Source: Microbotryum violaceum (taxonomy: Eukaryota). From it: a stretch of 64,000 bases of DNA. The notes beneath the pieces were generated by a model, which did not search any database, was not told the DNA's origin, and saw nothing but the letters and a program-made list of their open reading frames with translations. The translations under genes were made by a program, and so were the position numbers. The stretch lies in contig CDLV01000010.1 of the NCBI GenBank assembly GCA_001244265.2, positions 62,001-126,000 of the forward strand, read 5' to 3'. Below are positions 1,696-62,283 of the stretch, piece after piece. Each line of letters opens with the position of its first letter. Positions within the stretch are counted from its first letter, which is position 1.

Positions 1696-2962
1696 CTTGC
1701 TTCAGGATCGATGGTTCGAGAGGTGAAAGGGTAGGAGGAGGAGACAAAAAGCGTTGGACGAGTCGTGGGAGTAGGAGCGTGTGAACAAATCACAACAGAG
1801 CCCGTCCGGCCCCTAGCAATTCTCGAAACCCGCCGTCGCGGGGAAGCCACGAGCACCGAAATGCGGGGCCCAACATGTGATGAATCTCGCACGGACTTGG
1901 CACCTGGGGGCCGGAAAATCTATTCCCCGCCTTTAGTATAACCGAGAGCGCGAGTTCTTTTCTCCTGAATCCTGGTCTTTGGCCGTTTACAAGCCAAAAC
2001 TTCGGAAAAGGTCACTTTTCGGGTCCTGACCCACAAAGGGGGGTACGACTTGCGACCAGCAGAGGGATCAACCTTTTTGCCGTCGAGCTCTCGCGCTCGT
2101 TCGCGCTGCGCTTCGTCGGGGATAAGGCCGATCGACGAGCTGGGGAACGGCAATAAATAAGCCTTAATCTGGGTTATCCCGTCGTGCTGGTGTATCAACC
2201 TCGAATAACTGAATGAGAAGTGAACTCCAAAAGACGATAAGTAATGTCAACACGAAGCTTCTGGTGCAGAGGGGCTACTAGTACTAGTATTTCGAATCCT
2301 CCGTCACGCGGACCCAAATTCGAATCGATGTCATCCATCTTCTGGGACGTAGTTGTTGTGAGGATCTATTATAGAACCTTTCTTGTGATTATTTCCAATG
2401 AGGCCGCACATAGCTGGCGGAGCTGCCGCAGAAGTTTGACACAGAGACCAAGTGCAATGGGATTTGAGTCGACGCATTACAATAGCCTGGCAGCAGTACA
2501 AAGGTCTAAGGGAAAGTGTTGAAGGTGTTCGTAGACCTTGCGCTGATATCGGGGGCCGGATAGCTTAGCAGGTCAAAGCTTTTCCAATCAATCGAAACAC
2601 ATGGTTCAAGCTGAAGGGAGCTGCTGTCGACGTGAGACCTGATCATAGTCCTCCCTTTTGCCTCCTTCCGTCGTAGTCGTTGCATAAAGACGTGTAGTCC
2701 TTGATCGACTGGTTGAGCGGCCTCGAGGCGGGCGCTTTCTTTTGCTCGCCGCTCGCGACGCGGAATGTGCTGATTGACTGTAGCGCAAGACGCATCGCAG
2801 GCACCCATGCCGACCACTGGTTGATGCGGGCGAAAAGACCTATGGTCTCGAGAGGCTCAGCTTTCCTGGACATGTGTTTTCGATGATCGTGCACCACGAT
2901 TTGAGTTCACGGTTGAACTCATCAGACGCTACCAAGTTAAATTTGGTGCTTCGCGATCTTTG

Positions 2963-3101
2963 GTCCAGGGAGACGAGACCACGAACTTCAGTCAACGGTC
3001 GATAGCAGAGTAGGCAATGATTGGTCAATTACACACCTTTAGTCCAGGGAGACGAGAACACGAACTTTAGTCAACGGTCGAAAGCAGAGTCAATGATTGG
3101 T
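2963..3101. repeat. Imperfect direct duplication of about 62 nt (period 79)
   Basis: gtccagggagacgaga(c/a)cacgaactt(c/t)agtcaacggtcga(t/a)agcagagt...caatgattggt at 2963-3025 and 3042-3101. Confidence 0.85.
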
Positions 3102-6245: not shown

Positions 6246-9200
6246 ATGGCTGAAGGTCGAGGTGAGTTTTGGCATTCAAGAACGCGGTTTCTGTCCAAAG
6301 AGTCGACTGTCCGTCGCACCCGTACGAGGCGAGGGTGTGTCTGAATCGAGTGTTCGCCATCAGGAATGATACACGCCAGGATAATATGCCGTGACCGGAT
6401 ACATTGCTGCAGTTGAAGCGCATACTGACCCTTATCGTCCCACTCTGCACGGTCCTCCCCCACACCGTCCGCTCGTCCGGTCTCGACTCCCCCACCTCGC
6501 CCCGTCACGTACCATGACACAATAAACGCACGTTCTGATCGCGACTATAGCCCGGTATCCGCTCTTTTCCGAGTCGACGGCGGCCTCGCTCCCTTCCCCT
6601 CTGGCGCAACTGCCGAACCGATCCACTTCGCCTCTGTTCCCGGCCTCCCCACCAAACATCTCCCCGAGTCCGATCGCATCCACTTCAGCAGCTCCGACGG
6701 GATCACAACAACCGTCAAGAGCATCTTCGAGGGAGAGACCGACATCGCGTTCAAAGTCGTTGCGCGAGCTCGACTCGGGCTCGATCCTGCTCGCGGCCCC
6801 TCCCGCCGACTCGTTCTCGCTCCGATCCGCTTCGTCCCTACACCACGACAGTCACATTCCTCACCCCAATCCTACTGGTTCCCCCGTTCCATCGATCGCG
6901 GCTTCATTGGCCCCAGCTCCAGATGCATTACCTAGCCACATCGCTCTTCCAATGGCGCCCCACCTCTTGCCGTCATCGAATCTCGCCGCGCTTCCGATCG
7001 AGCAACTCGTCGCCCTCGTCATGGCCTTGTCCGAAGATCGAGACTCAATAATAGCCCAACTTGAAACACGTCAACGGGAATGCGAAGCGTTGGAGACCAT
7101 TTGTAAGGATGCGGGAGTCGGGCCGGGAGAAGTCGATCGAGCAAAAGTTCGGGCTCGAGTCTTGCCGAGCGAGGACACAGCCCAGACGACGACGGCGGGG
7201 TGGAGGCCGAGTCAAAGTGCACCGATACGAAGCAGAGAGTGGAGAATCGCATTGTTACCGCCACCTGAAGCGCCTTCAACATCGTCGACGTCGGACTTTG
7301 ATACGAGCTCGGAGCAACCGCCAGCATCAGCGACGCACCTCTCTCAAGTCGACCTTGACCTCGATGATTTGGCCGAAGCAATGGGAGAGAATGCTTTCCA
7401 GGTACAGAACGCGGGGACCGACACCGCTAATGAAGGTACTTTGAACGAGTCGGCGACTCCAGCGGTGGACATTAGCCCTTCGTCGACGATCAGCAAGGGC
7501 AAGACGGGGAACCGGGGACGCCACGCCTCGCTGTCCTCTCGTCTCTTTGGCAGCATCCTCCTCGCTGGAACATCTTCGTCGCCCCCACCACTCCCCGTGC
7601 CCGACCCGAATTCTTTAACCTCAGCGAAGAATATCAAAAAAGGTCGCCACAAGCGATCCGACAGCGCGCAAAGCAGTTCAAGCATCGCCTCGGGGACTTC
7701 TTCGATCGTCTGCAACGACAGCGTCAAGTCTGACGATCCGACGACATCACCGGCCAACAAGGGTACTTACGAAGGTTGGATCGGGTGGAAGAGCTGGAGG
7801 GCCAAGGAGAAGAAGAGCACGCTCGCTTCGTCCGTGTTCGAGAGCGAGACGACCAGCTCGATCCGCTCTTCAGGTGGGGCAGACGAAGCGGGAGTAGAAC
7901 GAGTCGAATCGCCGACGATCGATGTCGATGCGACGACGGCGTTGGATGAGGACGAGCTGGCGACGCCAATGCCCAAGCCGAATAGGATCAGCGACTTTTT
8001 CGCATTAACGTCTCCGACTCGACCGAGGAAGGGCAGTAGCTCACTACAGCCTCGTCCAGATGAGGTCGTCTCTCCTCCTCCAGAAGAACCGGTAACTTAT
8101 GCGTCGCCGCCGTCTGCTTCGATACTTAGCGCGATTACAACGGCCACCGCCATTTCGGCCGACGAGACGAGCACTTTAGTCTCACCGACGGAATCCGACA
8201 CTTCCTCTGCTTCGTCCGCGACACCCGATCGGAAACCGCGCGCCTGGGAAGGCCTGGGGTCACCGATCCTCACCCGACCTCGGATCCCTTCTGCACCGAG
8301 TCTCTCGCACCAACAGGCTCACAGCGCTTTGGTTTCGGCGGCCGAGGTTGGGGCAAGTCTGTCGAGGACGTCGTCGTCTCGGAGCTCCCACAGTTCGAGA
8401 CAAGCGTCGTCGGCCGTGCAAGACGATCTTTCGACATCGGCGGCGACCATCGAAAAGCCGGTTACGACGATCGACACACCAGTCCAGGGCCTGAAAGTCG
8501 TACAAGAAGACTACGATACCACCGCGGACGTTGACAATTCTAGCATCTCGACACCGCCCGAGTCGCTCACAGATGCATCATGGAATGCGGATCGAACGAT
8601 CAAGTCGCGGCGACGCGTTTCGGCGAACTTGTCAGAACGCAAGTCCCCGGCCCTCGTCCAAGCGATCATGACTCCCGCCGCCAAGGAAACTCCGCCTGCA
8701 AGTGCGGCTACGAATCCAGGCTATGTGGCTTCGGCTAAAGGTGCTTTCGGTCGAGCACTTGGGTTCGGTTCGACTCCCTCTTCGCCAAAGATGGCGCGAT
8801 CGTTTTCGGAAGGGATGCGACGTGCGAGCGGTGTTTCGTCGACGCAGGGTGAACCCAACTTGACTCTGTTCCCCAAGCTACCCACACTTTCCAAATACTC
8901 GCCCGCTGCTCCTGCGGCTCTGTCTACGCCGTCAACGGTCGTTTCTCTTTCGGCGCATGCAACTCCAAGCGTGAAGAGTCCCCCGCCTATTCCAATGACG
9001 CCGACAATCTCTTCGTCTGCTGCGATCCCACCGACGATGATGGAGCTTGGAGTGATTTCTGGTGAACCTGCACCTCCGACATTAGCTTTGCACAATCCGA
9101 CTTCTGGACAGGCAGCGAGCGTGGGAGAGGAAGGTCCTATGGTCGATCGATATGGGTTCGTGTACGACGTGCGCAGTGGGATGAAGTTGTTGCGTGAAGC

Positions 9201-31668: not shown

Positions 31669-31753
31669 CGCTTTTTTTATTTATTTGATAGACTTCATTA
31701 ACAGCATAATTATATTAATACCCAGAAATCTTCGGAAAAGTCGGAGGGAATGC
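31669..31753 (+). repeat. AT-rich dispersed element of about 85 nt, copy 1 of 3
   Basis: cgc-T-tract-atttgataga.ttca.taacag...tacc...aagtcggag.gaatgc also occurs at 38492-38582 (+) and 38128-38215 (-). Confidence 0.8.
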
Positions 31754-32240
31754 TGTTACGCACACTGGCAGAAGCCAGTAGTGTAAGACTCATTGACCCT
31801 GAACCAGGATCAACCATACCCACTAAAACCCCCTTTGGTGTCTTACAGAGACACTAGGCGACCCTTGGACTCCTGGATCTCGAACTCCGTTTCGGTGATC
31901 GGTTCCAAAAGATCCGACGAGAATCGACGACGGCGACAGAGCTTCCAGATTGAGTGAAAGAAGAGGACTCGTAGTTCGACAAGTCGATGTTCCGAGCGAG
32001 ACACGACCGGGCATACAAAGTCCACAAAGACTGGGTGGGGGGTCGGGGACAGAGCAGACCAGAGGCGCCGGGCAAATGGGCAGCCGACCGCGAGGTGAAC
32101 CAGGCACTCGGGTGCTTCCGAGGGTCGCCGCGCTTGAATCCAGCATAGTCCAACATTCTCAGCATTACGAACGGGACCCACTCCGAACTAAAAGCGCACG
32201 TCATAAGCCCACCTTAAGCTTCCCACCGAGAGCAGCAAAC

Positions 32241-33872
32241 ATGCCCGACCATTCCCCGATCTTTGAAGCGCAACATGTGCACCTCGTGTACGAACACATC
32301 GCCTCCGACTTTTCAAGGACGAGGCATTCGACCTGGCCTTTTGTGCAGCAGTGGTTGCAGCGATTGAACGAGGTCAGTCGAGGTGTGGCCGGGGTTTTTG
32401 GCTGAAGATGGGGCCCTTACGTAGAGAGGTCGAGTGGGAAGGGTAGTAGTACCTCTTTCGAAGAAACCTACTCATCGAGTTACTGTTTCATTTCCTACAG
32501 AACTCGCTCATCCTTGACGCCGGCTGTGGTAACGGTAAATACCTCGGCGTCGATTCCGTTCTCTCCTCCAGCGATCGACCGGGACCGATACCACCGCATG
32601 TCATGTACAAGAACAAGGGAGTTAAACCGAAAGGAAAACAGGTGGCTTCGATGGAGGATTCTGTGGCGGCCTCGAGAACGATTACGCAGGGGAAAGCGGT
32701 TTCGGAACCTGCGGAGCTCGAGCCGACGACAGAAGCACGTGACCTCGACCCTTCGCTCGATCCGCCCCCCTCCGCGAGCTCGAAATCAAACAAGGCGATC
32801 CTTTCAATTGGTCTCGATATGTCATTGGGTTTATTAACCATTGCATCGAAGGAGAAAGGGCACGAGGTGGTTAGAGGGGATTGCTTTGATCTGGGGTGTT
32901 GGAGGATAGGCGCTTTCGTGAGTTGTGTTCCTGGGCTATCGGTTTTGCTTTATCGGTCAAGGGCACTGATTGAGCTTGCTCTCGGGGTATTTCAGGACCA
33001 CGCCATTTCCATCGCAACGATCCACCACTTCGCTACCCAAGCTCGACGAATCGAGTCCGTCAAAGCAAGTACCGACCCCTTTCCCCCCCCCCCCCCCCAA
33101 GTCCAACCCAAAAAAACCACTCCAGAACCCCCCAAAAAAACCTGTACTAACCGAACCGATCCATCCTTTCTCCCCCCACTAGCAACTCATCAAAGTCATC
33201 ACACCCTCAACAACTTCGACCCTTACCTCCCCTCACAAACTCCTCATCGTCGTTTGGGCTTTGGAACAGGATCCTGCCTTGTCCGGGTTCGGGTCAGCGA
33301 GGAAAAAAAGTAAAGTCAAAGGTGGGGCTGTTAGAGTTGATGAATTCCTTGAGCACGAAAGCAAGGAGGAAGGGGTTGGTGATGGGTTTAACGAGGGGAA
33401 GGTTGGGAGGGAGGATGAGAGGGATGTTTTTGTGCCTTGGGAGTTGCAGAGGAAGGAAGAGGGGATCGCGAAGGCGAAGGTAACGAGGAGGGAGAAGGCT
33501 GGGAAGAAGGGGAAGGGGCCGCAGGATGAGGAGACGGTCAAAAAGGAGGAAGAACAATCGGCAAACGTGGTTGAGGATGAGACCCCGGCAAAGATCAAGG
33601 AACAGACGTTCCAGAGGTATTACCACCTCTTCAAACACGGCGAATTGACGGATTTGGTCAAGGCCGCTGCGGAAGAATTGGGAGCGAGCTTCGAGGGAGC
33701 TGCGGAGGTGGATGCTGAAGGCGAGAGAATTGGGGCGATGGGGAAATTGATAACAGAAGAAGATGAAAGGAGGGTTCTTTGGGTGAGGATGAAAGAAGAA
33801 AGATGGGAGAGGGAGAATTGGGTTGGCGATATCGAATTGGAGTGGAGGAGTGGTTCGGCGCGGGGGAGGTAG
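32241..33872 (+). CDS. TRM9: tRNA wobble-uridine methyltransferase, Trm9/ALKBH8-like
   Basis: FEAQHVHLVYEHIASDFSRTRHSTWPFV; LDAGCGNGKYL; IGLDMS; DHAISIATIHHF; LIVVWALEQ; DVFVPW; FQRYYHLFKHGEL; WERENW. Confidence 0.88.
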
Positions 33873-35587
33873 TGCGGATTATAATACGGAACACGACGAT
33901 CAAATGTTTCGAGGGTGGACCTGATCTTCGATGATGATCGGCACTGCGATGATCTGAAGCGGGACGGAATGGCGTTCCTCGTTTAGCAGTCGTCCAACGC
34001 ATTGTTGCGACAACGCCTCCAAATCCAGCAACCCTCCCCTCGAGTTCTGCAAGGGCTACGACCCAACTTGTTGACATGAGCAAGTCCGATTCAGGGATGA
34101 ATAGTAGTAGCACCTGAAGGGATCATAAATTAGCAGAGGGCTCCCCATGGCACTCAGTTTTGCAGAAGTCCTGAGTGACCACAATCCGCAATCCGCGAGA
34201 TGCGGCGATTGGCACGTACGGCGGCGAACTCGCATGAAATTCTCTAGCCCAATGGCAAATCCAGAAACAAGTGTGATAGTATTCCAACTTGAAGTGGATT
34301 GCAATGTCGCGCTCCTTCAAACGACATGTTTCCGGAGGAGATGGTTGCAGGGTTCTCAATTAGATGAGATCTAGAAAAATTGGGCTCTGGCCCTTATCTA
34401 TCTATCTCCCATCTTAGTCAGATATCTTGGATAGATGCCTAGATATCTAATTGGTATCTTAGTGGGTTAAGATGAGATATAGACAGATGTCTTTGAATTG
34501 GAGGCGGTCGATTGGCACTCGGAGGAGCCTGCCATTGGGTGGCCAGAACCACATTTTAAGTATCACAAAATGTGAATAAACTGGCAAAGCTGGATTTCTG
34601 TTCACTGTTTTCTGATTCTCTCTGATCCCGATCTGGACCGGATCCTCGACGATTCAGCTAGCGATTCGGGCGATCCTCAACAAGACCATGGCGAGACCCT
34701 CAGTTGCCACGCGACGCCTGGGTTGATGGACCCAAAGCGGCTCGATGCATCAGCTGGTAAGCCCGCGAACCGGAGTTGTTTGTGGCCCGTGGCGAGGAAA
34801 GTTCTGTTCTGCCTGTCGTGTGCTGATTGGGTGGGTGCTCCTCCATGCCATCGGCAGGCCCTGTGAACAGAGTCGGGCTCAGTTGCAAGGCGAAGTCGAC
34901 CGCCGTTCCCAGCCCGGATTCCCCCTACTTTCCCTTTCCATCGCATGAGGTGAGGGGTGGTGAGGCAACAGCGTATGGGCAGCACCTCACTTTTGGGTTC
35001 GCTGACTTTGATTTGCCCAAACCCCTTGGCCACAGATGTTAGTCGCTGTCTTACATCTCCGATCGCCGTCGAAACGGGTCGGCATGGCCCAGTACCAATC
35101 CACACGTTCCGTACGGCCGAGGCGTTGGCTTGACCCTGGTTGAATGTTGACTTCCAGTTGCTGAAGGCATATGGCATGTTGAGGAGGAGTCGAGCAGATC
35201 CTCACTGCTCGAAGTCGATTTTGAGGTTGCGCATGGAGTTGACGATAATGCGAACGCGACCAGCCCATTGATTGAAGCCCGATTCGGTTTGGACCCCTGG
35301 CGCCAAAGCTAACCTGAACCATGTTCCTTTCAGATGGCGAAGTCGTCCTTGGAGACAGCCGCAATAGATGGCCACAGTATCGCTGTAGGGTGTGCACGCG
35401 GCTCTCGGCGCGGCGTTGGAGTAAATCGCAGTTCCAGCGACACCTCAGCTCGGGCGCGCATTACAACAACTTACAATTCGCTACAAGATTCAGCGACGAC
35501 CGAGCCGCCGAGCCGAGCACGCTGCCGTCGTCTCCGTACCGCATGGTTACGCCTGTGTCGGCGAGGGGGTCGAGCGGGCTTGATATT

Positions 35588-35862
35588 CCGACTTGATTGA
35601 CCAGGGGCGCAGAGTTGGTATGTGCGCCATGAGTTCGCGCAGTACGGGAATAGCGAAGTGCTGAGAAACAGAAGATGGCGGTCGGGAGGAACCGAGGCTT
35701 CGTCAGCGATCGTGACAGCGGTAACAGTGACGCGAGCCCGCCGACCGCGGGCCCCGGCTGCGGCCGTACGGCCATCTTCTGTTTCTCAGCACTTCGCTAT
35801 TCCCGTACTGCGCGAACTCATGGCGCACATACCAACTCTGCACCCCTTGTCAATCAAGTCGG
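35588..35862. repeat. Inverted repeat: 92-nt arms, 91-nt spacer
   Basis: 35588-35679 is the reverse complement of 35771-35862, with 2 mismatches by eye. Confidence 0.95.
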
Positions 35863-36088
35863 CCGCCGACACGCGTGCTTTCTGGGAGCTGCCGCCGAAT
35901 GCTCGGACCCCGATGCCACGATTTGCCGCCTTTGACGTCTTCATCGACGAAATCGTAAAGCACGTGCGCGAACAGCTAGTGTATGTGACGTCCTTCATAC
36001 AGGATGAGACGCAAGTCAAGATCTTTGTCGCACGCGCTCGGATCATCTCGGACGGCGACGACGACAAGAACCGTCTCATTCACGTCGA

Positions 36089-36560
36089 CCTGGATGTAAA
36101 ATTCGCCCTTGATTTGTTCGCCAAGGCCACAGCTCGATTGGGTCGCGAGCCAACTGATCAACTCCTGCTTCTCGTCCGCACTTCGCTTCGTGGTAGTTGA
36201 TACCCAAAGGTACTTGACCATTCCAAGGAGCAGTATATGTAGAAGATCGGGTGGTGTTGCGAGGTGAGGATCGTAGTCTGGGCGACGAAGTGCGGACGTT
36301 CTCGTCGCTTTCTTGACGGACGTGGGATTGTTGCTTCGGCGCCATTGCTCGGCAAGCCCGGGCCTCTGCCGAGATCTATCCTCACCTCGCAACACCACCC
36401 GATCTTCTACATATACTGTTCCTTGGAATGGTCAAGTACCTTTGGGTATCAACTACCAAGAAGCGAAGTGCGGACGAGAAGCAGGAGCTGGTCAGTTGGC
36501 TCGCGACCCAATCGAGCTGTGGCCTTGGCGAACAAATCAAGGGCGTATTTTACATCCGGG
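36089..36560. repeat. Inverted repeat: 183-nt arms, 106-nt spacer
   Basis: 36089-36271 is the reverse complement of 36378-36560, with about 6 mismatches by eye. Confidence 0.95.
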
Positions 36561-37680
36561 CTTCGACATCCTGTGTCGGCAAGGACTATAGGGTCATCGC
36601 TCAGATTTTCCCCCTGGTCGCCTACTTGCTTCAGCAGCGCATGTGGCTCTCCCAATCCGAAGCAGAGTGCTGGATGGCCCTCGGCAAACTCACGCGACAT
36701 GCGATGCGTACTGACACCGACGACCTCGCAGCCTATGCCGACACGTACAAGGTTCTCGCCACTCGATTCGTACTACTATCCTTCCCACGTGGTCAGCAAG
36801 GTCAAATATCACTACCTACTGCACCTCGAGGAGGCGATTTGGCGGTTCGGTCTGCCGAGGATGTTCGACTCGTCCGTCGCCGAGTCAGCGAATAAGACCG
36901 TTCGCGACTACTGCATGCATTCGAACCGCCACTCACCTATTCGTGACATTGCCTGTCAAGACAGCCAGGCACACCATCTGGTCTTCATCGCTGCGGGAGG
37001 CCGATGGGAAGCCGCTGACGGACCCCAAGGCCACCGCCGGCCCCTATGTTTCGCAATTCTTTCGCGTCGCAGGAAGGGAGCGACTTTCGACGCGAACTAC
37101 GGCTGGACAATTGGAAAGATCCGAAGGTCGACAATCGACACGTGCATAGTGGGATGGCTCTGGGCAACGCGAAGACTGCTTTGGCGACTAAGGAGAAGAT
37201 CGACGGCACCCGAGCGTGTGCCGCGCTTCATCATAGTCTTTTTGAATGCACTCGGAACCACGCCAAGCTTGCGTCCAGGTCGCTTCGTCACGTTGCGCAA
37301 TGGGGATTATTGTTGGTCCCGAGATTGGTGCTTCGTTCAAGCTGGTCCGCAAGATCAAAGGGTACGTCCCCGCCATGCATTGGATCGTGGTGCGTCCGTG
37401 TCATTCGCTGACGAGAGAAGTGATGCCCGTCGGTCAGCCCCGGGTGGCGCAGATCCTTGAACTCTGGACCGTGGACGGCCGACCGCCCGAAGTGATCTCA
37501 CCCTTCGGGCTCAGCTTTGTGGTGCTCGCCTTCGCGGCCGTGGGCGAGGAACTGGGCGACACCAGGTTTTTGAAGATACAGCGCATGGAGGAGATTGAGG
37601 TTATGCCACTTGAGGTGAGCACAAAGGCTCGATCCATGATGCTGCCTATGACGCGCTGATGGCCTTCAGCCACCCGGCAG

Positions 37681-38123
37681 GTTCTCATGGCGTTGGCCCT
37701 CGTTCAGCACGATTGCTCTGGACCTTGCACTCTGGGCTCTGGGCGAGGGCGTTCGGCCAATCTTCGCAGAAGGCCAGTACACCCGCCGCATTGCGCGGGG
37801 CGTCGTGCACGACAACGACAGAAACTTTTTACTTAGCACCATCAATTACCGACCGTACGATATTGTCGACCTCTTCGCTCCTTTACCAATCCCACCACAA
37901 GAGAGCGACGAGTTCCTTGAGGGCCCTTCTGCAAAATCCACGATATCGTACGATCGGTGATTGATCGATTAATGATGCTAAGTAAGAAGTCCTTGTCGTC
38001 GTCGTGCGCGACGCCCCGCGCAATGCGGCCGGTGTAGTGTCCTTCTGCGAAGATTGGCCGAACGCCCTCGCCAGTGCAAGGTCCAGAGCACTCGTGCTGA
38101 ACGAGGCCCAACGCCGTGAGAAC
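37681..38123. repeat. Inverted repeat: about 185-nt diverged arms, 73-nt spacer
   Basis: 37681-37866 matches the reverse complement of 37940-38123, with many substitutions and two short indels. Confidence 0.9.
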
Positions 38124-38586
38124 CGCTGCATTCTCTCCGACTTGGCCAAAGGTTTTTGGGTATTTGTACAATTACACTGTTATTGAAATCTATCAAATAA
38201 AAAGATAAAAAAGCGCGCAGCCCCGGCGAATCCAACTTCCCTATCGGGTCGGCAATCGCTTGTACGGACACACAAGGGTACAAGAGCTGGTCACAGCGTG
38301 CCTGTATCAATCTTCGAGCCGATGTATTATGGGATGTCGTCAATCAATCACTCGAATCCCTTATTGCGGACTATCGGTCCACACTCGTCAACACGGCGTA
38401 TGCACCTGCGTCCCTGCCAGTTGGCATAACTACATCATCAATTTGATCTCTGAGGAACACATGTCAGGAAGTCGGATTCGCCTGAGCTGCACGCTTTTTT
38501 GTTTTATTTTTATTTGATAGAATTCAATAACAGTAGAATTATATTATTACCTAAAAACCTTTGGAAAAGTCGGAGGGAATGCAGCG
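38124..38586. repeat. Inverted repeat formed by two copies of the AT-rich element, spacer about 264 nt
   Basis: 38124-38221 matches the reverse complement of 38486-38586, diverged. Confidence 0.85.
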
Positions 38587-48259: not shown

Positions 48260-49979
48260 TCGAGAGTCGAACGCGCTGGAGCAGCGGTGAATCATTGCCG
48301 GAAGATAGGGTGTTTATACAAAGTGTTCATTACTTTTATGTTGTGTGACTAGATAACCAATGACCAATGAAGCAATCTTGGAGCCTCATGACGGAAGTAG
48401 GAGATGTTGATTGCGTTTGCCGAAGCGTCCGCCCGGGAGCAGCGCCCATTTCTCCGGGGATCTGGTAGATCGTATCTACTCACGTTGCTCCCCACTGCAA
48501 CAAGTTCGAAGCACCGTAGGCTAGCAAATCCTCAAAGACGAGATATCAAGTTTTCCGTATGCTGGGAAGTCGTAGAAGCATGTATGCGCAGCCAATCCAG
48601 GGCGGCGTCGAGACTTACTGGGTCTCATGGTCTCCGGTAGGCGGAAAATAATCGGAAGAATCACCAGATCATGCACACGAAAAACAGATGATCCCATTCT
48701 AACAATGGGTTGAAGAAGAAAACGTCAGCAAAGCGATCACCTAAGGTCTGTCGAGAGGAGGCCGATGCCGAAAGGAGGATAGACGTCGAGGCCGAGAAAG
48801 GTGCCGAAGGTGCAAGAATACGAGAGCGCGTTCGAGAAAGGAGAGGGACTCACCTTGGTATTTCCGTTCTACTTAAAATATCCTAGCTTGAGTGGAAAGA
48901 CGATGTGGTTAAGAATTGATGATGCCGGCGATGGTGTGCGAGCGCGGAAGCACGTCCCATCTGGCGCAAAGGCGCGTCGACGGGATCTCCGCCGCCACGA
49001 AGCAGTGACATGGCACAAGGCTGCCGATGATTTGGACTCAAATATGAGCACTCACATATCAAGGGGCTGTGTTATAGGCGATCCTGAGGAGCCCCTGAGC
49101 GAACAGCAACGGGGATGCGTAACTGAGACTCGATGATGTCTGGCCTAGGCGAAGGAGCAAGGTGGCGGTTTGCGCTGGCCCTCTGTCGAGCAGTGCCGTT
49201 CAGCGGAGGAGGAAAGAGCTTCCATTACAGCAAGGAGATGACACTTGACGAAGATGGTCCTTCGGCTGGTACAGGGTCATGGCGAGTTCCTCCGATAAGA
49301 TCGCCGGGGGAAAGCGCGTGGCACCACGTCGAAACCCACCCGACTCGGAGCAGCGGATCTCGGTCAGCCCCCAACTTACCTCTTGTCAACAGCTGTCAAC
49401 AATAGACGAGGCCAAATCATGGCAGTCAGTCGACGCGTCCGAAAAAGCACGCACTCTCGGTGATGTGGAATCCCCGTTAAATAGCTCCGAGGCCGGTTTG
49501 AAGCTAGGGCACGTCGCACGGTCCCCGGCCTTGAATGAATGGCGTTATGCATGACGGTGGCCGAGCCACCGCACTACGGTGGCACAGAAAATGGAGGCTT
49601 TTGCCGGTGAGTGAAAACCGTGATGCGGAATATTATTTGAACACGGTGAAGAGAAGAATACAAGTACATAAGAGTGGGACTGATTGACTCTGAAAGGATC
49701 ACCGAGCAAAACGGTTTCGCGACTACAATTGCGACAGTTCTTCCTGATACGCCGGGTTAATTCACTAGTAGGTGTCTATGCGCGATTTGCGAGACCTGGT
49801 AAATTTACCCGAGTCGGAGCACGGGCGGTCGCCAGGTCAGCTGTCCCATTTTAACGACGGCGTCAGGCCGGCTGACGGCAGAATCGACTCAGTCATCGAG
49901 TCCAGTCAATCGCGCGCGATTTTGGTCGGGCGTGGTTCCTCTCACTCGCCGGGATCAAGACCATGTTGATCTCAAAAAA

Positions 49980-51890: not shown

Positions 51891-54143
51891 ATGCCCATCT
51901 CCTCCACCACCAACCACGACTTTGACAAGTCGGTCAGCACCGGCATGGTTGACGCCAGCCAGGTCCACAAGACCGTCGTCCCTGAGTGAGTCCTGTTTGA
52001 CGGCCTTCTAAGTTCAGGGGCCGCGTGACCCAACCGGGCGCGGCGCCACTCCTTCGGGGCACCGCTCGGCTGTGGAGTTATTCTGCCACGCGAGCACAGG
52101 AGGCGCTCGCCGGTGCTTCCCTCCTCCCGAGAACATACCTGGGCCATAAATCTTCTTGCTGACTACTTCGATATTGTTCGTGCATTACTTCACAGTCCTC
52201 AAATGCTGGAGAATGTTTCTACTAATCTCGGCGAGACGACCGTTAACGATGCCGCTGAGACCGCCATTAAGGAGCGCCAAATGACCATGTTCCAGGCCAT
52301 CAAGGCGTACCCTTACGCCTGCGCTTGGTCCATGTTGTTCTCGACCGCGATCATCATGGAAGGCTTCGACTTCACCATGATCTTCTCCTTCTACGCTCTC
52401 CCCGCCTTCCAAAAGAAGTTCGGTGTCCCCATCGGTGGCGGCAAATACGTGATTACCCCCGCATGGCAAACCGGTCTCTCGAACGGTGCTCAGGTCGGCT
52501 CCATTCTCGGTCTCATGGTCAACGGTTGGGCTTGCGATCGCTTCGGATACAAGAAAACCATCTGCACTTCGCTCGTCCTCATCACCTGCTTCATCTTCAT
52601 CACCTTCTTCTCGGTTAGCCTTCCCATGCTTCTCGTCGGCGAAATGTTATGCGGTATCCCATGTAAGCCCTTTTGAGTCGACGCGGATGCCATTCTCCAA
52701 TACTTTGACTAACTCATCTTCGCTTTCTGTCATGGCCGCCTCACAGGGGGTGTTTTCCAGACTTTGACCACTGCCTACGCCGCCGAGGTCTGCCCCGCCC
52801 CGCTCCGTCCTTACCTCACGACCTACGTCAATCTCTGCTGGGTCATGGGGCAGTTTATCTCCTCCGGCGTCTTGAAGGGCGTTTCGGGCATGAACGAGAA
52901 CGACCAATGGGCTTACCGCATCCCCTTCGCTTTGCAATGGGTGAGTGGCGTGCCTGCCTCGACAGAGATTTTCAACTTTCGGTCCTGATCCGCCTCTTCA
53001 TTTCAGATCTGGCCCCTGCCTATCCTCGCCTGTGCCATTTTCGCTCCCGAGTCGCCTTGGTGGTTGGTTCGCCAAGGTCGCCTCGCCGACGCCGCCAACT
53101 CGTTGACCCGTCTCGGTTCGCTTTCTGCTGAGGGCTTTGTCGATGTCGACGCCAAGATTAACCAGATGATCTTCACCAACGAGATGGAGAGGGAAATCAA
53201 CGCCGGCACGACCTACTTTGACTGCTTCAAGGGCACCAACTTGCGCCGTACTGAGATTGTCTGCATGGTCTGGATGATCCAAACCCTGGCCGGCTCGGGT
53301 TTCATTGGCTACTCAACGACCTTCTTCGAACGCGCTGGCTTGTCCAGTTCTAACGCATTCTCGCTCTCGCTCGGCAACTACGCTCTTGGTGCCGTTGGCA
53401 CGATCTCGTCGTGGTGGACCATGCAGTGGTTTGGCCGCCGCGACCTCTACATGTGGGGTCTCTTAGCAATGAGCATCGTTCTCTTTGGTGTCGGTGGCTC
53501 CGGTTTCGGCAAATCTTCGGGCGCGTCGTGGGCTTCGGGTGCTCTCATCGTCGTTTACTCGTTCCTGTACCAATTCACAGTCGGCCCCGTGTGCTACTGC
53601 CTCGTCGCCGAGATCCCGTCGACGCGTCTTCGTGCTAAGTCGGTCGTGCTCGCCCGCACCTCGTACAACATCATTGGCATCATCAACAACATCATCTTCC
53701 CGCGCATGCTTTCGCCCCTCTCGTGGAACTGGAATGCCAAGGTGAGACCTTTCTCTTTCCCTCTCGCACCGTGAGCTTGACCCCTCGGTGGATCGTGTTG
53801 CTCACCAATCTCTTTTGTTGTGTGACTTCCTTACAGGCCGGTTTCTTCTGGGGTGCTTCGTGCCTCCTGTGCACAATCTGGTGCTTCTTCCGCCTCCCAG
53901 AGCCTAAGGGTCGCGTGAGTTTGCACCCACTGTCTGGAGCCCAGCGTCTCTTCCTCACGTCTTCGCTGCGCTGTACTGATCGATACATTGTATCTGTGTG
54001 CCTTCCCGTAGTCGTACTTGGAGCTCGACATCATGTTTGAAGACCGGATTAGCGCACGACACTTCAAGACGACTGCTGTAGATGTACGAGCCCATGCCCG
54101 ATCGGATGAGAAGCACTATGAACCCATGGGCGGCGTCCATTAA
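51891..54143 (+). CDS. MFS sugar porter, maltose/alpha-glucoside:H+ symporter family
   Basis: WSMLFSTAIIMEGFD; FYALPAFQKKFG; DRFGYKK; AYAAEVCPAPLRPYLTTYVNLCWVMGQ; YRIPFALQW; PESPWWLVR; CFKGTNLRRTEI; AEIPSTRLR; LPEPKGR/SYLELDIMF. Confidence 0.93.
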
Positions 54144-58400: not shown

Positions 58401-58587
58401 ACCCAACGAAGGGGGCGGCTCCGCGATAGCCGACATGAGTCGGCAATGCAAATGCGTCGAAACGATTCTTCAGCATTATGTTGAAATTTTCGTCGGTGAG
58501 TCTCCGCGACCTGCGTGGTATGTCCCCGGGTCTTTCGGTTCTCGGGCGCTGATTCTTGATGTGGCGTTCGCAGACACGGACGCCTGA
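55476..58587 (+). CDS. F-BAR (FCH) plus RhoGAP protein, Rgd1-like
   Basis: LDRMKQ...FFKKRAQIEEEYAK (FCH); PTFGIDL...IPRVLVKCCEAIE...GLYRLSG (Arg finger); KLWFRELPEPLLT; LPDPNYATLKFL; NQMGCSNIAIVFGPNL. Confidence 0.93.
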
Positions 58588-58739: not shown

Positions 58740-61200
58740 TCGCAACATACCTAGAGGGCAGTATATACTTACTGCCCACACCGTCAGGCAAGGCACTCGC
58801 CGGTTTCGATGGAAAGTTTCCCGAGAGGTACTACGTGGCTCGTGATATCGAGGCGAGTATGTCTACTCCTTCATCGAGTTTTTCGGTCTGGCAATATTGA
58901 CCTCTCCGTCCCGTCGCTTTCCCAGATGTGCTTGACGATCTTCAACGACTTATCTTCCCATGGGTCCGAGAAGCGGCTTTGGCCGAGTTCGAGGAGCGCT
59001 TTGAGGCCGACGAGCTCTGTCAAGACAAGGCGTTGGTTGGTCACTTGAAGCTGATCCAATGGTTCAGACTTATACTCCTTCAAGATACGGCGTTTTTGAT
59101 TCAAACCTATCCGAGGGGAATGGCCGCGAAGAAGCCGCCCCCTTGAAGTGGTGTACAGCGGCCTCCTTGATTCCATCGTCGACAGGCTAGGCGCTCAGCA
59201 ATCCTCGGAACGCCAATCTGCAACTGCTCACTTTCGCAGCGATCATCGTCGAATCTTGGAACTTCTCATCGAACAGCAGAATCGAGGCGGTCACTTTCAC
59301 GGTCATGTAAGGAAGCGACGACTACTCGAATTTGTCCGCGCATCCGACAGACAAATCACGACGATCGTCATCGAAGTCATCGAAGTCGCGGAGAAATTCG
59401 GGTCGTCGTCGCTTCCATGACCGTGAAAGTGACCGCCTCAATTCTGCTGTTCGATGAGAAGTTTCAAGGTTCAACGATTATCGCTGCGAAGGTGAGCAGT
59501 TGCAGATCGGCGTTCCGAGGATTGCTGAGCGCCGAGGCTGTCGACGATAGAATCAAGGAGGCCGCCGTACACCACTTTGGGGGCGGCTTCTTCGCGGCCA
59601 TTCCCCTCCACACTGGCCACAAGATGCGGAGCCCACGTTCGAAATCGGTCCGACTGAAACAGGCTCGTTTGGTAAATCGGTGCATCTGGATAGGTTTGAA
59701 TCAAAAACGCCGCATTTTGAAGGATGACGAGTTTGAACCTTTGGATCAGCTTCAAGTGACCAACCAACGCCTTGTCTTGACAGAGCTCGTCGGCCTCAAA
59801 GCGCTCCTCGAACTCGGCCAAAGCCGCTTCTCGGACCCATGGGAAGATAAGTCGTTGAAGATCGTCAAGCACATCTGGGAAAGCGACGGGACGGAGAGGT
59901 CAATATTGCCAGACCGAAAAACTCGATGAAGGAGTAGACATACCGATCTCAGCAAGTCGAGCCAACTGCCAGCTCCTGCCTCCGATCAAGCACCAAGAGT
60001 GCCGATTCACCCGAGTAGGAGATTGGATGCAGCTGTGCGTCGCCGCTAAATGCGCTTGGGAAAAGGGGGACGTTGTACCATTCTCGATACCCGTATTTCG
60101 AACTGCCTTTAGAGAAGTCTGGCTCGAACGAACCATATGGGAGACCTCCAGTGTGCTCACCGTGGAACCACATGTAGAAGGCAACCGCGCCGACATTGCA
60201 AATACAAGGGTCGAAATGACGGGCAACGGGCTTGTAGTCGAGACGACCTTCCTTGTTCGTCTTGCCCGAATCGGCCACGATATAGAGCGTCTTGATCGGC
60301 GGGTGATCCGGTCGTTCGAGCGCTCGCATTGACAAATCCGAGAAGGCGAGAGCACGTCGCCGCGGAATAGTGTGGCGAGAGAGACTGCCCACTGCACATG
60401 GCGCGGTTGCGAAGCGACCGGGTCACCGAATGTACGGCGGTCAGCTTACCGGTCGGCCCCTGGCAAAGAAGGTGTTCACTGATTTGTAGTTGTTCTTCTT
60501 TGGTGACATTGTCGGATGCCCCTTTGATTTTGTTGGTCTGGGCGGACTTCTTTTGACCGGCCTCGCGTTTTTCTTCTAGCCGACCTCGAGAGTACCGATC
60601 GGGAGAAAATCTCGCAGCTTGCCACGGGCCGGAACGCTTGTGCGATCAATTGAATCTATTAGACGATACTGGAGGCACGTCAAAATCAAGCAACATGTGC
60701 TAATCTAGGGAGTAGATCCATTGCGGGTACGAAGGGAAAGGCATGCGAGCTTACATGGCATGTTCGAGGGCGTTGAGATGCTATGAACGGTGGGGAAGCC
60801 GGCATGGCGCGATCAACAGACGCCCACTTCGCTAGGTGCCTGAGAGGCCAGTCACAAGCCATAGTCGAGAGATAATACTCGCATTCTTCAGCACCAAAAC
60901 ACCAATGGTTGTGACTTCGATGTCCTCGCCTTGATCGGCACCCGTACCTGATCCGCGCGCGGGTCGCTTAAACTCGGAGCTCAAAAAATTCAAGACCATG
61001 TCTGGGTCGATCGGTCAAACGCAAGCGCCGGGCCACGTTTCAGCCATGAATTTGGTGTAAAATTTGAGCGATTTTTCGTATCCGCTGACTGTCTTGGGCG
61101 CCAAGTTGGATGTGCTAGTGCAGTTGGCGATGATCGCGTTGTTCGACGCTTGAACTAGAATCTCGGCCAGACGACGGGCGGCGAGCAGCAACCGTCAGTA
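58740..61200 (-). mobile_element. Decayed Crypton (tyrosine-recombinase DNA transposon, Ndc10-II-like domain), internally inverted
   Basis: Minus strand: APKTVSGY...VLNFL; ATLFRGD; RALAFSDL; GKTNKEGRLDY...RHFDPCICNVGAVAFY; PDFS...EWY; LIFPW...VILQNAAFL...PIYQTSLFQSDRF. Plus strand: KALAGF...YYVAR.../LQRLIFPW...ILLQD. It has stops, frameshifts and an intron. Confidence 0.75.
58857..59943. repeat. Quasi-palindrome of about 1.1 kb (arms 58857-59340 and 59387-59943)
   Basis: The outer 203 nt are identical (58857-59059 vs 59741-59943). The inner arms are diverged, the left arm lacks about 80 nt, and the loop is about 46 nt. Confidence 0.95.
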
Positions 61201-61898
61201 AAAATTCGCGTCAAAGCCCCGGGTCTGCGCCGATTCCCAACATGAATAGGACAAGAAACTCACGTCGTGCAGCAAGACTTCCCATGCCTGCTCATTGCCC
61301 TCACCCTCGCTTGCTTCACGCTCACTCTCGGCGTGCTCGCCGTCGTCCTCTCGACATCCGAATTCGTCGCCACGATCGGCGTTCGAATCGGTAGTAGCCA
61401 AGCCACGAATGGGGGAGGAGTTGGGAGTCATTCCTTTCGTCGCTTTGGTCTGAAATTGCTGTGAGTCGAGTGCGAATTTGGCGGCGTCGGTGCCCGAGAT
61501 CGGTCGAGACGAGAGCTCGGAATGACGGTCACGTGAGGAAGCTCCAAGCGCACTCAGTGTCGGTCAAGAGAGGTCGTACAACGGTCGTGCGACTGGACAG
61601 CAAGTAGATAGGCAGTCGAATCAAGCCAAGGGAGACGTGGCCTCTTTGTTCAGTCGATTACGGTATCTGCGAGGAGAGCGGAGATGCGAAACGCAGCGAA
61701 GTCAATCATTGTTCGTTCGCGACCTCATCACATCACGGACAGACCCGTGCACGGTGCCGGCCAAACTCGACAAGCCACTCACAGCGGCAAGGCACTCGGG
61801 TTGCGATCGATACACGACTCGAGCAGCTCGAGCAGCTTGCAAAGGAGGGTGTGAAATCACCACAAAGGAGTATGCCATCGCCAGCCCAGCCGACGACT

Positions 61899-61949
61899 GA
61901 GAGAGAGAGAGGGAGGGAGAGAGAGAAGAGGGAGAGGGAGAGGGAGAGT
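61899..61949. repeat. GA-rich microsatellite
   Basis: gagagagagagagggagggagagagagaagagggagaggggagagggagag. Confidence 0.85.
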
Positions 61950-62283
61950 GGAGGAGTGTCAGGCAAGAGGACTCCCCAGACCCGCCTCAAACAAGGCGGC
62001 CCGAGCTCAATATTGCTTTCGAATATTCAGGCTGGCGCTCGCGCGCGTTCCGGGCAGGCCTGCCCAGTGCCTCCTGACGGTGTGGGCAGTATGTACTGCC
62101 CTCTAGCTTATTAGTAAGCTCGACGCGGACGACCTCGCCCTGAGAGACGTATATCTTGATTACAGGTCGCCATAATCTCAAAAGTCGCAAAAAGATCCGA
62201 TAGTCATAGAAATTACTAGATTACAAGAATGCAAGCAGTAAAAGCTCTACGCGGCCAACGTCAGAGAAAGAATCGCTGAGGTA

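What the first reader, a model, noticed from the sequence alone, without database searches (positions are those of the whole stretch)
58740..61200. An unrelated Crypton relic carries the same fold-back signature as a 1.1-kb quasi-palindrome
Seen: the 3' part of a Crypton-like recombinase gene occurs twice tail-to-tail around a loop of about 46 nt. The plus arm is preceded by its natural upstream coding sequence (LAGF...YYVAR). The minus arm is joined to a more N-terminal part across an apparent deletion. Established: Cryptons normally lack long inverted repeats, so this is not native structure. Inference: the same architecture in two TE superfamilies 20 kb apart points to a host process rather than element biology. 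The locus directly follows the 3' end of the RhoGAP gene, so read-through transcription could make a long dsRNA stem.
Basis: partly seen in the sequence, partly recalled or inferred. Interest (0 to 1): 0.72.

Follow-up and report, generated by a model that had tools for sequence, protein, structure and literature searches.

The report
Self-mirroring dead transposon in anther smut
A dead recombinase transposon in an anther-smut fungus carries an old backwards copy of part of its own gene; the two halves keep overwriting each other in natural strains, and similar mirror structures appear to be common on this fungus's ordinary chromosomes but scarce on its mating-type chromosomes, though nothing yet shows that they make silencing RNA.

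Summary
The palindrome is real: arms 58857-59340 and 59387-59943, 46-nt loop, NDC10_II hits on both arms; contigs from three other runs show it, with doubled depth on the identical part. It lies in a dead CryptonF copy (58751-62106) whose two ends are both the element's 5' terminus, the layout of maize Mu killer. The genome's only other copy is unfolded there and has a short interrupted inverted repeat at the fold point, pointing to a replication template switch. The arms are being homogenised: 203 identical bases beside 8% divergence, and strains differ at the same sites in both arms. Blind sampling found 8 fold-backs in 440 kb of autosomes against 1 in 280 kb of the far more repeat-rich mating-type chromosomes (p=0.08 per base, 0.003 per repeat base; small sample): roughly 200-900 genome-wide. 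So 'host process, not Crypton biology' is largely supported; RhoGAP read-through and dsRNA are untested, and the element's own promoter is the likelier source. This scan noted other fold-backs in this genome before; the density, compartment contrast and strain-level conversion are added here.

The parts
58585..58587 (+). Stop codon of the upstream FCH-RhoGAP gene, 163 nt before the element
   Evidence: Sequence; RhoGAP and FCH domains on the sister-species model P0004; distance
58751..58797 (+). Copy of the element's 5' terminus (47 nt, begins CTAG, with a short internal hairpin), joined to an internal point of the gene through about 2-5 nt of microhomology
   Evidence: 91% to C1:517588-517630, 85% to window 62066-62106; exact 13-mer occurs 3 times in the genome; junction
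58797..58856 (+). Native upstream coding sequence of the left arm, absent from the right arm
   Evidence: Matches C1:520070-520128
58857..59340 (+). Left arm: intron plus end of the NDC10_II/tyrosine-recombinase domain and linker; 79-bp deletion at 59112/59113
58857..59059 (.). Recently homogenised block: 203 bp identical to 59741-59943
   Evidence: collapsed double-depth contigs in X7, X12, X18
59341..59386 (.). 46-nt loop; native continuation of the right arm; turn at a 3-nt microhomology inside an ancestral 8-bp interrupted inverted repeat
59387..59943 (-). Right arm, in the element's sense orientation
   Evidence: 91% to C1:520129-520710; NDC10_II E 1e-8
59942..59944 (-). Junction of a 348-bp deletion (3-nt microhomology) that removes the exon with the H-x-x-R and following tyrosine motif: the copy is catalytically dead
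   Evidence: reading the motif as catalytic rests on general knowledge of tyrosine recombinases
59944..61431 (-). 5' part of the CryptonF gene (SAM-like N-terminal domain, start of NDC10_II)
   Evidence: tblastn to P0003 residues 1-281; Pfam
61432..62106 (-). 5' leader and the element's 5' terminus (62066-62106); presumed own promoter, pointing into the fold-back
   Evidence: 86% to C1:517588-519780 over the whole 5' half; promoter role is inference
35588..38124 (.). Three further fold-backs (35588-35862, 36084-36567, 37680-38124; loops 85, 106 and about 120-150 nt) in a Plavaka/CACTA-like relic
   Evidence: Atlas look-alikes with Plavaka at score 0.96 for the relative P0008; no direct Pfam hit
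38124..38586 (.). Fold-back of a LINE 3' tail plus about 30 nt of its flank, so made after insertion
   Evidence: tail matches the LINE at C6:608760

Best explanation
A 3.36-kb dead CryptonF copy in Microbotryum was rearranged in place, before the split from M. silenes-dioicae, by a host template switch. Step 1 (inferred): synthesis through the gene turned back at a short interrupted inverted repeat and copied about 0.6 kb of the gene backwards. Step 2 (inferred): it ended on a copy of the element terminus, replacing the 3' part of the gene. Step 3 (shown): small microhomology deletions hit each arm, one removing the catalytic exon. Step 4 (shown): the arms have since been overwriting each other (gene conversion or quasi-palindrome correction), in both directions and differently in different strains. 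The locus is one of several hundred such fold-backs (estimated), mostly in transposon debris on recombining chromosomes. It would fold into a hairpin of about 480 pairs if transcribed, most simply from the element's own 5' end, but the default reading is a tolerated, mechanistically maintained scar without a selected function.
For: In-place duplication: the arms share 28 differences from the C1 copy. Template switch: the unfolded C1 copy has an 8-bp inverted repeat (1 mismatch, 54-nt spacer) at the fold point; 102 of 4813 positions in the element have such a site; ODIRA junctions use short repeats 40-80 nt apart (PMC10766186, passages); 6 of 21 measured loops are 40-80 nt and 9 of 21 are 46-106 nt. 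Conversion: 0 arm differences in the outer 200 sites against 23 in the inner 275 (Fisher p=3e-6; 12 of 200000 permutations), while differences from C1 are evenly spread (11/205 vs 17/270, p=0.7). Strains: X12 and X18 carry three C1-like bases and a 3-nt insertion in one collapsed double-depth contig, so in both arms, where the window and X7 carry three derived bases in both arms. Sister species: model P0004 has right-arm residues and the 79-bp segment in its left arm, then runs through the same loop. Genome-wide: 11 local inverted repeats in 22 blind 20-kb autosomal samples, 8 after dropping 3; 1 in 14 samples of C1/C2, which each carry a pheromone-receptor gene.
Against: Both outer ends stop exactly at the element terminus, which a blind host error would not favour unless the element had that sequence at both ends natively; that is unresolved (one search found no displaced right end at C1). 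The turn uses a register 2 nt off the 8-bp repeat. The structure is a duplication with deletion, not the inverted triplication ODIRA makes. The autosome excess is not significant per base after the exclusions (p=0.08). P0004 is a gene model from an assembly I could not inspect. X14's depths over the arms do not add up to a simple copy count.
Confidence: 0.7

Rival explanations
1. Functional 'killer' locus: the fold-back is transcribed (own promoter or RhoGAP read-through), diced into siRNAs and silences the Crypton family in trans; such loci are kept by selection on autosomes and refreshed by conversion.
For: Layout matches Mu killer: both ends from one element end, two partial gene copies ending in an inverted duplication (PMC3440606, passages). 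Predicted hairpin -653 kcal/mol for 801 nt, z=-53; 203-bp perfect duplex. The species has Dicer, two Argonautes and an RdRP, all expressed (PMC4469406, passages). Kept since before a species split; family has only 2 copies.
Against: No expression or small-RNA data. Any inverted repeat folds well and conversion needs no selection. The arms are about 9% diverged from the only possible target. Cryptons are generally low-copy anyway (PMC8969392, passage). In Mu killer itself read-through from the flanking gene was found in plants that failed to silence.
Confidence: 0.2
2. Element-made: the Crypton recombinase, or aberrant transposition joining two 5' ends during replication, built an inverted dimer of left halves that later lost 2.4 kb from one side.
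For: Both ends are the 5' terminus down to the same CTAG. The C1 copy also has an inverted 320-bp copy of its 5' end, breaking off in the middle of the terminal hairpin. Alternative transposition makes such inverted duplications for maize Ac (10.1101/2020.01.07.897926, abstract and outline); an active CryptonF causes inversions in Chlamydomonas (PMC9977147, passages).
Against: The inner turn lies at a short interrupted repeat inside the gene, not at a recombinase site; the same short-loop fold-backs occur in elements without any recombinase.
Confidence: 0.2
3. Two independent insertions in opposite orientation, or an assembly chimera.
For: Inner arm divergence (about 8%) approaches the arm-to-C1 distance (about 10%).
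Against: 28 shared differences from C1, 17 of them in the unconverted part; microhomology turn without a terminus; independent runs and a sister-species model show the same structure.
Confidence: 0.03

Closest known systems
CryptonF transposons (Kojima and Jurka 2011, PMC3212892, passages seen)
   Same: NDC10_II/tyrosine-recombinase gene; the C1 copy adds a weak C-terminal GCR1_C hit; low copy number; basidiomycete host.
   Different: This copy is dead and rearranged. Cryptons are described as having no terminal inverted repeats, yet both copies here have 5'-end sequence inverted at the far end (47 and 320 bp).
Mu killer of maize (PMC3440606, passages seen) and Ac composite insertions (10.1101/2020.01.07.897926, abstract and outline seen)
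   Same: Both termini derived from one element end, two partial gene copies ending in an inverted duplication, next to a host gene.
   Different: Those are shown to silence in trans; here transcription, siRNAs and silencing are untested. This one is old, fixed across strains and species, and in a fungus.
ODIRA and related template-switch inverted duplications (PMC10766186, passages; Aspergillus flavus TRP/INV preprint 10.1101/2025.01.14.632981, abstract and outline)
   Same: Turn at a short interrupted inverted repeat with a 40-80-nt spacer; microhomology at later junctions; cluster near a chromosome end (10 loci in the first 164 kb of C8).
   Different: Duplication with deletion rather than triplication; those structures are described as unstable, rare or transient, whereas these persist and are numerous.
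Actively maintained inverted repeats of Caenorhabditis (PMC1803023, abstract only) and arm-to-arm conversion in Y palindromes (recalled)
   Same: Repeat symmetry better kept than the sequence itself.
   Different: Here the arms are transposon debris, and they look scarcer, not commoner, on the non-recombining chromosomes.

Membership tests
CryptonF | Tyrosine-recombinase (NDC10_II-type) gene | tested here: met
   PF16787 on three window frames and on C1; P0002 E 7e-32
CryptonF | C-terminal GCR1_C domain | tested here: inconclusive
   C1 copy: 16.7 bits, E 0.009, under the cut-off of 23; that part is lost from the window copy
CryptonF | Catalytic H-x-x-R and tyrosine present (active element) | tested here: not met
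   Motif present in C1 and P0003, inside the 348-bp deletion and upstream of the left arm in the window copy: a relic, not an active member
CryptonF | No terminal inverted repeats; 4-6-bp terminal direct repeat | tested here: inconclusive
   Both window ends start with the self-complementary CTAG, which could be the short repeat, but they are 41-47-bp inverted copies; the native 3' end could not be fixed from two copies
Mu killer-type silencer locus | Two copies of one element end and a partial inverted gene duplication | tested here: met
   against the description
Mu killer-type silencer locus | Transcribed through the repeat | tested here: inconclusive
   No RNA holder listed; the one RNA-guessed run laid looks like DNA
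Mu killer-type silencer locus | siRNAs and heritable silencing in trans | not testable with these tools
   Needs small-RNA data and genetics
ODIRA inverted triplication | Short interrupted inverted repeat, 40-80-nt spacer, at the turn | tested here: met
   8 bp with 1 mismatch, 54-nt spacer in the unfolded copy; background 2.1% of positions
ODIRA inverted triplication | Three copies with two inverted junctions around an origin | tested here: not met
   Two copies only; second junction is on the element terminus. Works like the first ODIRA step; not filed as a member
Concertedly evolving inverted repeat | Lineage-specific changes shared by both arms | tested here: met
Native long-TIR element (MITE/MULE type) | Other copies carry the same inverted arms | tested here: not met
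   C1 copy holds the arm region once; contrast the C5:914306 family, where many copies do

The most novel reading that the evidence does not exclude
Microbotryum autosomes carry hundreds of transposon-derived fold-backs that act as a scattered, heritable library of hairpin-siRNA 'killer' loci, generated by template switching, kept double-stranded by ongoing arm-to-arm conversion and retained where recombination makes selection effective; their scarcity on the mating-type chromosomes would be part of why transposons pile up there. A side claim: this CryptonF family has long inverted ends, unlike described Cryptons.
Probability: 0.15. Interest if true: 0.88.

Novelty: new variant of a known kind. 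Interest (0 to 1): 0.55.

Why it matters
Long palindromes are usually described as unstable and rare, and natural hairpin 'killer' alleles are known from a few maize cases. A 33-Mb fungal genome with an estimated 200-900 long-lived fold-backs in transposon debris, with conversion between arms visible as strain polymorphism, would be a natural system for two open questions: how silencing of a new transposon is first triggered, and whether recombination creates, maintains or purges palindromes. Microbotryum has many species with non-recombining regions of known age, so the compartment contrast can be tested directly on existing assemblies. If no small RNAs come from them, the result is still a practical warning for repeat annotation: these structures mimic TIR elements and fuse into gene models (P0004).

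Tried and rejected
Assembly artefact: rejected. Native internal repeat: rejected. Expression: no RNA holder listed; X18, guessed as RNA, has a contig through the last RhoGAP intron and no cover on the upstream exons, so it says nothing on transcription. Bacterial promoter/terminator scan is not applicable to a fungus and was ignored. Loss of hairpin-processing genes as the cause of palindrome tolerance: SAE2 and MRE11 homologues are present, and the stops in the SAE2 match fall in introns. Native 3' end of the Crypton: no displaced terminus found at up to 2 mismatches nor in 22 kb downstream of the C1 copy; no relatives in metagenome contigs; only 5 protein relatives, all Microbotryum; no solved structure; cluster look-up unavailable. 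Weak hits at C14 and C3 were only the (GA)n tract. Target-site-duplication scan of the 22 inverted-repeat loci gave only chance-level 5-6-mers. RIP-like bias: arm-specific changes were mixed, not C-to-T only; too few to test. Literature: searches for Microbotryum with transposable elements and palindrom and with inverted repeats and small RNA, and for Crypton with inverted repeats or TIRs, listed no paper describing this; the library lacks most subscription papers and I read no supplements (the element list in the supplement of PMC3212892 and Repbase entries could hold Cryptons with inverted ends).

Full report
Organism and setting. The window is G000:C8:62001-126000 of a 33.2-Mb, 20-contig genome. 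Named protein hits place it in Microbotryum: a M. lychnidis-dioicae protein is 100% identical over 91% of the query frame from the C1 copy. C1 and C2 each carry a pheromone-receptor gene and are the most repeat-rich contigs sampled, so I treat them as the two mating-type chromosomes; that my C1/C2 samples (0.6-3.3 Mb) lie in the non-recombining part is assumed, not tested.

Observation. The inverted repeat is there: arms 58857-59340 and 59387-59943, loop 46 nt, 95% identity, far above chance (best inverted hit in 10 shuffles 31-36 bits against 426 and 607). NDC10_II hits both arms and the upstream part. It is not an assembly artefact. Four of 24 listed runs were laid. X7, from another study than the possible source runs, has one 741-nt contig across the loop and a 203-nt contig at 83x against 38x flanks, the mark of two identical arms collapsed. 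X12 shows the same layout and X14 has a contig across the loop.

Anatomy. Only one other Crypton was found, at C1:517588 onward: SAM-like N-terminal domain, NDC10_II, weak GCR1_C. It holds the arm region once, so the repeat is not native. Against it the window element reads, on the minus strand: 5' terminus at 62106, leader, gene start at 61431, a 348-bp deletion that removes the exon with the H-x-x-R and tyrosine motif, the right arm, the loop, the turn, the left arm backwards with its own 79-bp deletion, 60 more native bases, then a 47-nt copy of the 5' terminus ending at 58751. The 13-mer that starts the terminus occurs exactly three times in the genome: C1 and the two window ends. The GCR1_C half is gone.

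How it formed. The arms share 28 differences from C1 and have 11 private ones each, so the duplication happened in place. The unfolded C1 copy has, at the fold point, an 8-bp inverted repeat with one mismatch and a 54-nt spacer; 102 of 4813 positions in the element have such a site. Short repeats 40-80 nt apart are the substrate described for leading-to-lagging template switches (PMC10766186, passages). The actual turn uses a 3-nt overlap 2 nt off that register. The other junctions show 3 nt (348-bp deletion), about 2-5 nt (terminus) and little or no microhomology (79-bp deletion). The outer end is the open point. Either the element had its 5' sequence inverted at the 3' end natively and the second switch landed there, or a full inverted dimer lost 2.4 kb. 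The C1 copy carries a 320-bp, 98.4% inverted copy of its 5' end about 840 bp after the stop codon, which fits native long inverted ends, but that copy abuts a Helitron-like repeat (family named from recalled end motifs; multi-copy), is itself part of a small fold-back, and the displaced tip was not found. Cryptons are described as lacking terminal inverted repeats (PMC3212892, PMC13465315, PMC8969392; passages).

Ongoing homogenisation. The outer 203 bp are identical while the inner part differs at 23 of 275 sites (p=3e-6; longest-run test 12 of 200000), yet the outer part is as far from C1 as the inner (11/205 vs 17/270). In X12 and X18 the collapsed double-depth contig has C1-like bases at 58975, 58984 and 58996 and a 3-nt insertion after 58979; the window and X7 have the derived bases and no insertion. 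Each lineage therefore has derived states in both arms. At 59054 X12 keeps different bases in the two arms where the window has the same one. The variant table was cut (101 rows not shown) and X14's depths were not interpretable. In M. silenes-dioicae the gene model P0004 fuses RhoGAP to the left arm; there the left arm carries right-arm residues and the 79-bp segment, then left-arm residues through the same loop. So the fold-back predates that species split and a longer right-to-left tract occurred there, subject to that assembly being right.

Is it a host process? In the window, three more fold-backs sit in a Plavaka/CACTA-like relic (Atlas score 0.96 for its relative P0008; no Pfam hit) and one duplicates a LINE tail with its flank. 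The first 164 kb of C8, chosen because it holds the window, has 10 merged loci. I then sampled 36 stretches of 20 kb at round coordinates, blind to content, and counted inverted repeats of at least 100 bits with a spacer up to 1.5 kb: 11 in 440 kb of autosomes (24% repeat by cross-matching, a lower bound), 1 in 280 kb of C1/C2 (61% repeat). Local direct repeats went the other way, 8 and 15. I dropped 3 autosomal loci: a family with native long inverted ends, a pair of small host-like genes (my reading) and one ambiguous case. Of the 8 kept, 5 lie in recognisable repeats, among them a head-to-head LINE with 4.3-kb arms at 99.8% and a perfect 488-bp fold-back in a family whose other copies are linear; 3 are of unknown origin. 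Tests: 8 vs 1 gives p=0.08 per base and 0.003 per repeat base; 11 vs 1 gives 0.023 and 0.0002; inverted against direct by compartment p=0.015 and 0.002. Density 18 per Mb (95% interval 8-36), about 470 (200-920) outside C1/C2. Of 21 loci measured (the LINE pair left out for size), 6 have loops of 40-80 nt. Age alone is an unlikely cause of the contrast: transposon copies were reported to be older in the non-recombining regions (PMC10502011, passages). One fold-back does lie on C1 beside the Crypton, outside the blind sample. SAE2 and MRE11 are present. Earlier notes of this scan describe separate fold-backs in copia, Ngaro, KDZ, TRIM and other elements of the same genome; I did not check them and do not count them as support.

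RNA. Either strand folds into a rod of about 480 pairs along the axis. The species has an expressed RNAi core (PMC4469406, passages). The layout is that of Mu killer, a lead I took from the earlier notes. But there is no expression evidence either way. RhoGAP stops 163 nt before the element, so read-through is possible; the element's own 5' end, intact and pointing into the repeat, is the simpler source (inference). In maize, read-through from the flanking gene went with failure to silence.

Verdict. Observation confirmed; interpretation partly supported. The locus is a dead CryptonF with a template-switch fold-back whose arms evolve in concert: shown for the structure, the in-place origin and the conversion; inferred for the switch mechanism; unshown for any function. 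As a single locus it is a new case of a known kind. What lifts it is the context: hundreds of such structures, apparently concentrated on recombining chromosomes, which I did not find in print. That contrast rests on 9-12 loci and needs a whole-genome count. Interest 0.55; the killer-library reading has about 0.15 probability.

Noticed in passing
G000:C6:608760-618571 (L043/L044): Two LINE copies head to head, arms 4336 bp at 99.8%, 1.1-kb spacer, both poly(A) tails outside: a very recent giant palindrome.
   Followed up: partly
G000:C1:522533-523005 (L017:7034-7506): A 320-bp inverted copy of the Crypton 5' end abuts a Helitron-like repeat at the centre of the terminal hairpin, and about 105 bp spanning that junction are themselves folded back. 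Native long inverted end or secondary copy is unresolved.
   Followed up: partly
L017:2089-6271 (G000:C1:517588-521770): Near-complete CryptonF gene on a mating-type chromosome; no 90-95% paralogue contigs in runs X7 and X12, present in X14, as expected of a mating-type-limited copy.
   Followed up: partly
window 32240-33873: A multi-exon host gene that looks like a tRNA methyltransferase (Trm9/ALKBH8-like, from recalled motifs) sits between a LINE 3' fragment at 31673-32122 and the Plavaka-like relic.
   Followed up: no
G000:C11:316868-318575 (L054:6868-8575): Perfect 488-bp fold-back in a multi-copy element whose other copies are linear.
   Followed up: yes
G000:C8:6825-7432 (L033) and C8:49184-50011 (L029): Fold-backs with 191 and 268 identical bases beside diverged parts, the same patchy pattern as the Crypton locus; the first has a third partial copy at 6605-6650.
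   Followed up: partly
G000:C5:914306-915523 (L042:4306-5523): Member of a 1.2-kb non-autonomous family with native inverted ends of about 240 bp, 20 or more copies.
   Followed up: yes
G000:C7:717519-718565 (L046): Two short, signal-peptide-like frames in inverted orientation at 80% identity; possibly a duplicated small secreted protein gene.
   Followed up: no
P0004: The M. silenes-dioicae gene model joins RhoGAP to the Crypton arm; probably a prediction error, since the window has a clean final exon and stop at 58574-58587.
   Followed up: partly
window 48916-49006 and 53596-53686; 2958-3101: A weak 90-bp inverted match 4.6 kb apart (74%) and a short tandem duplication.
   Followed up: no
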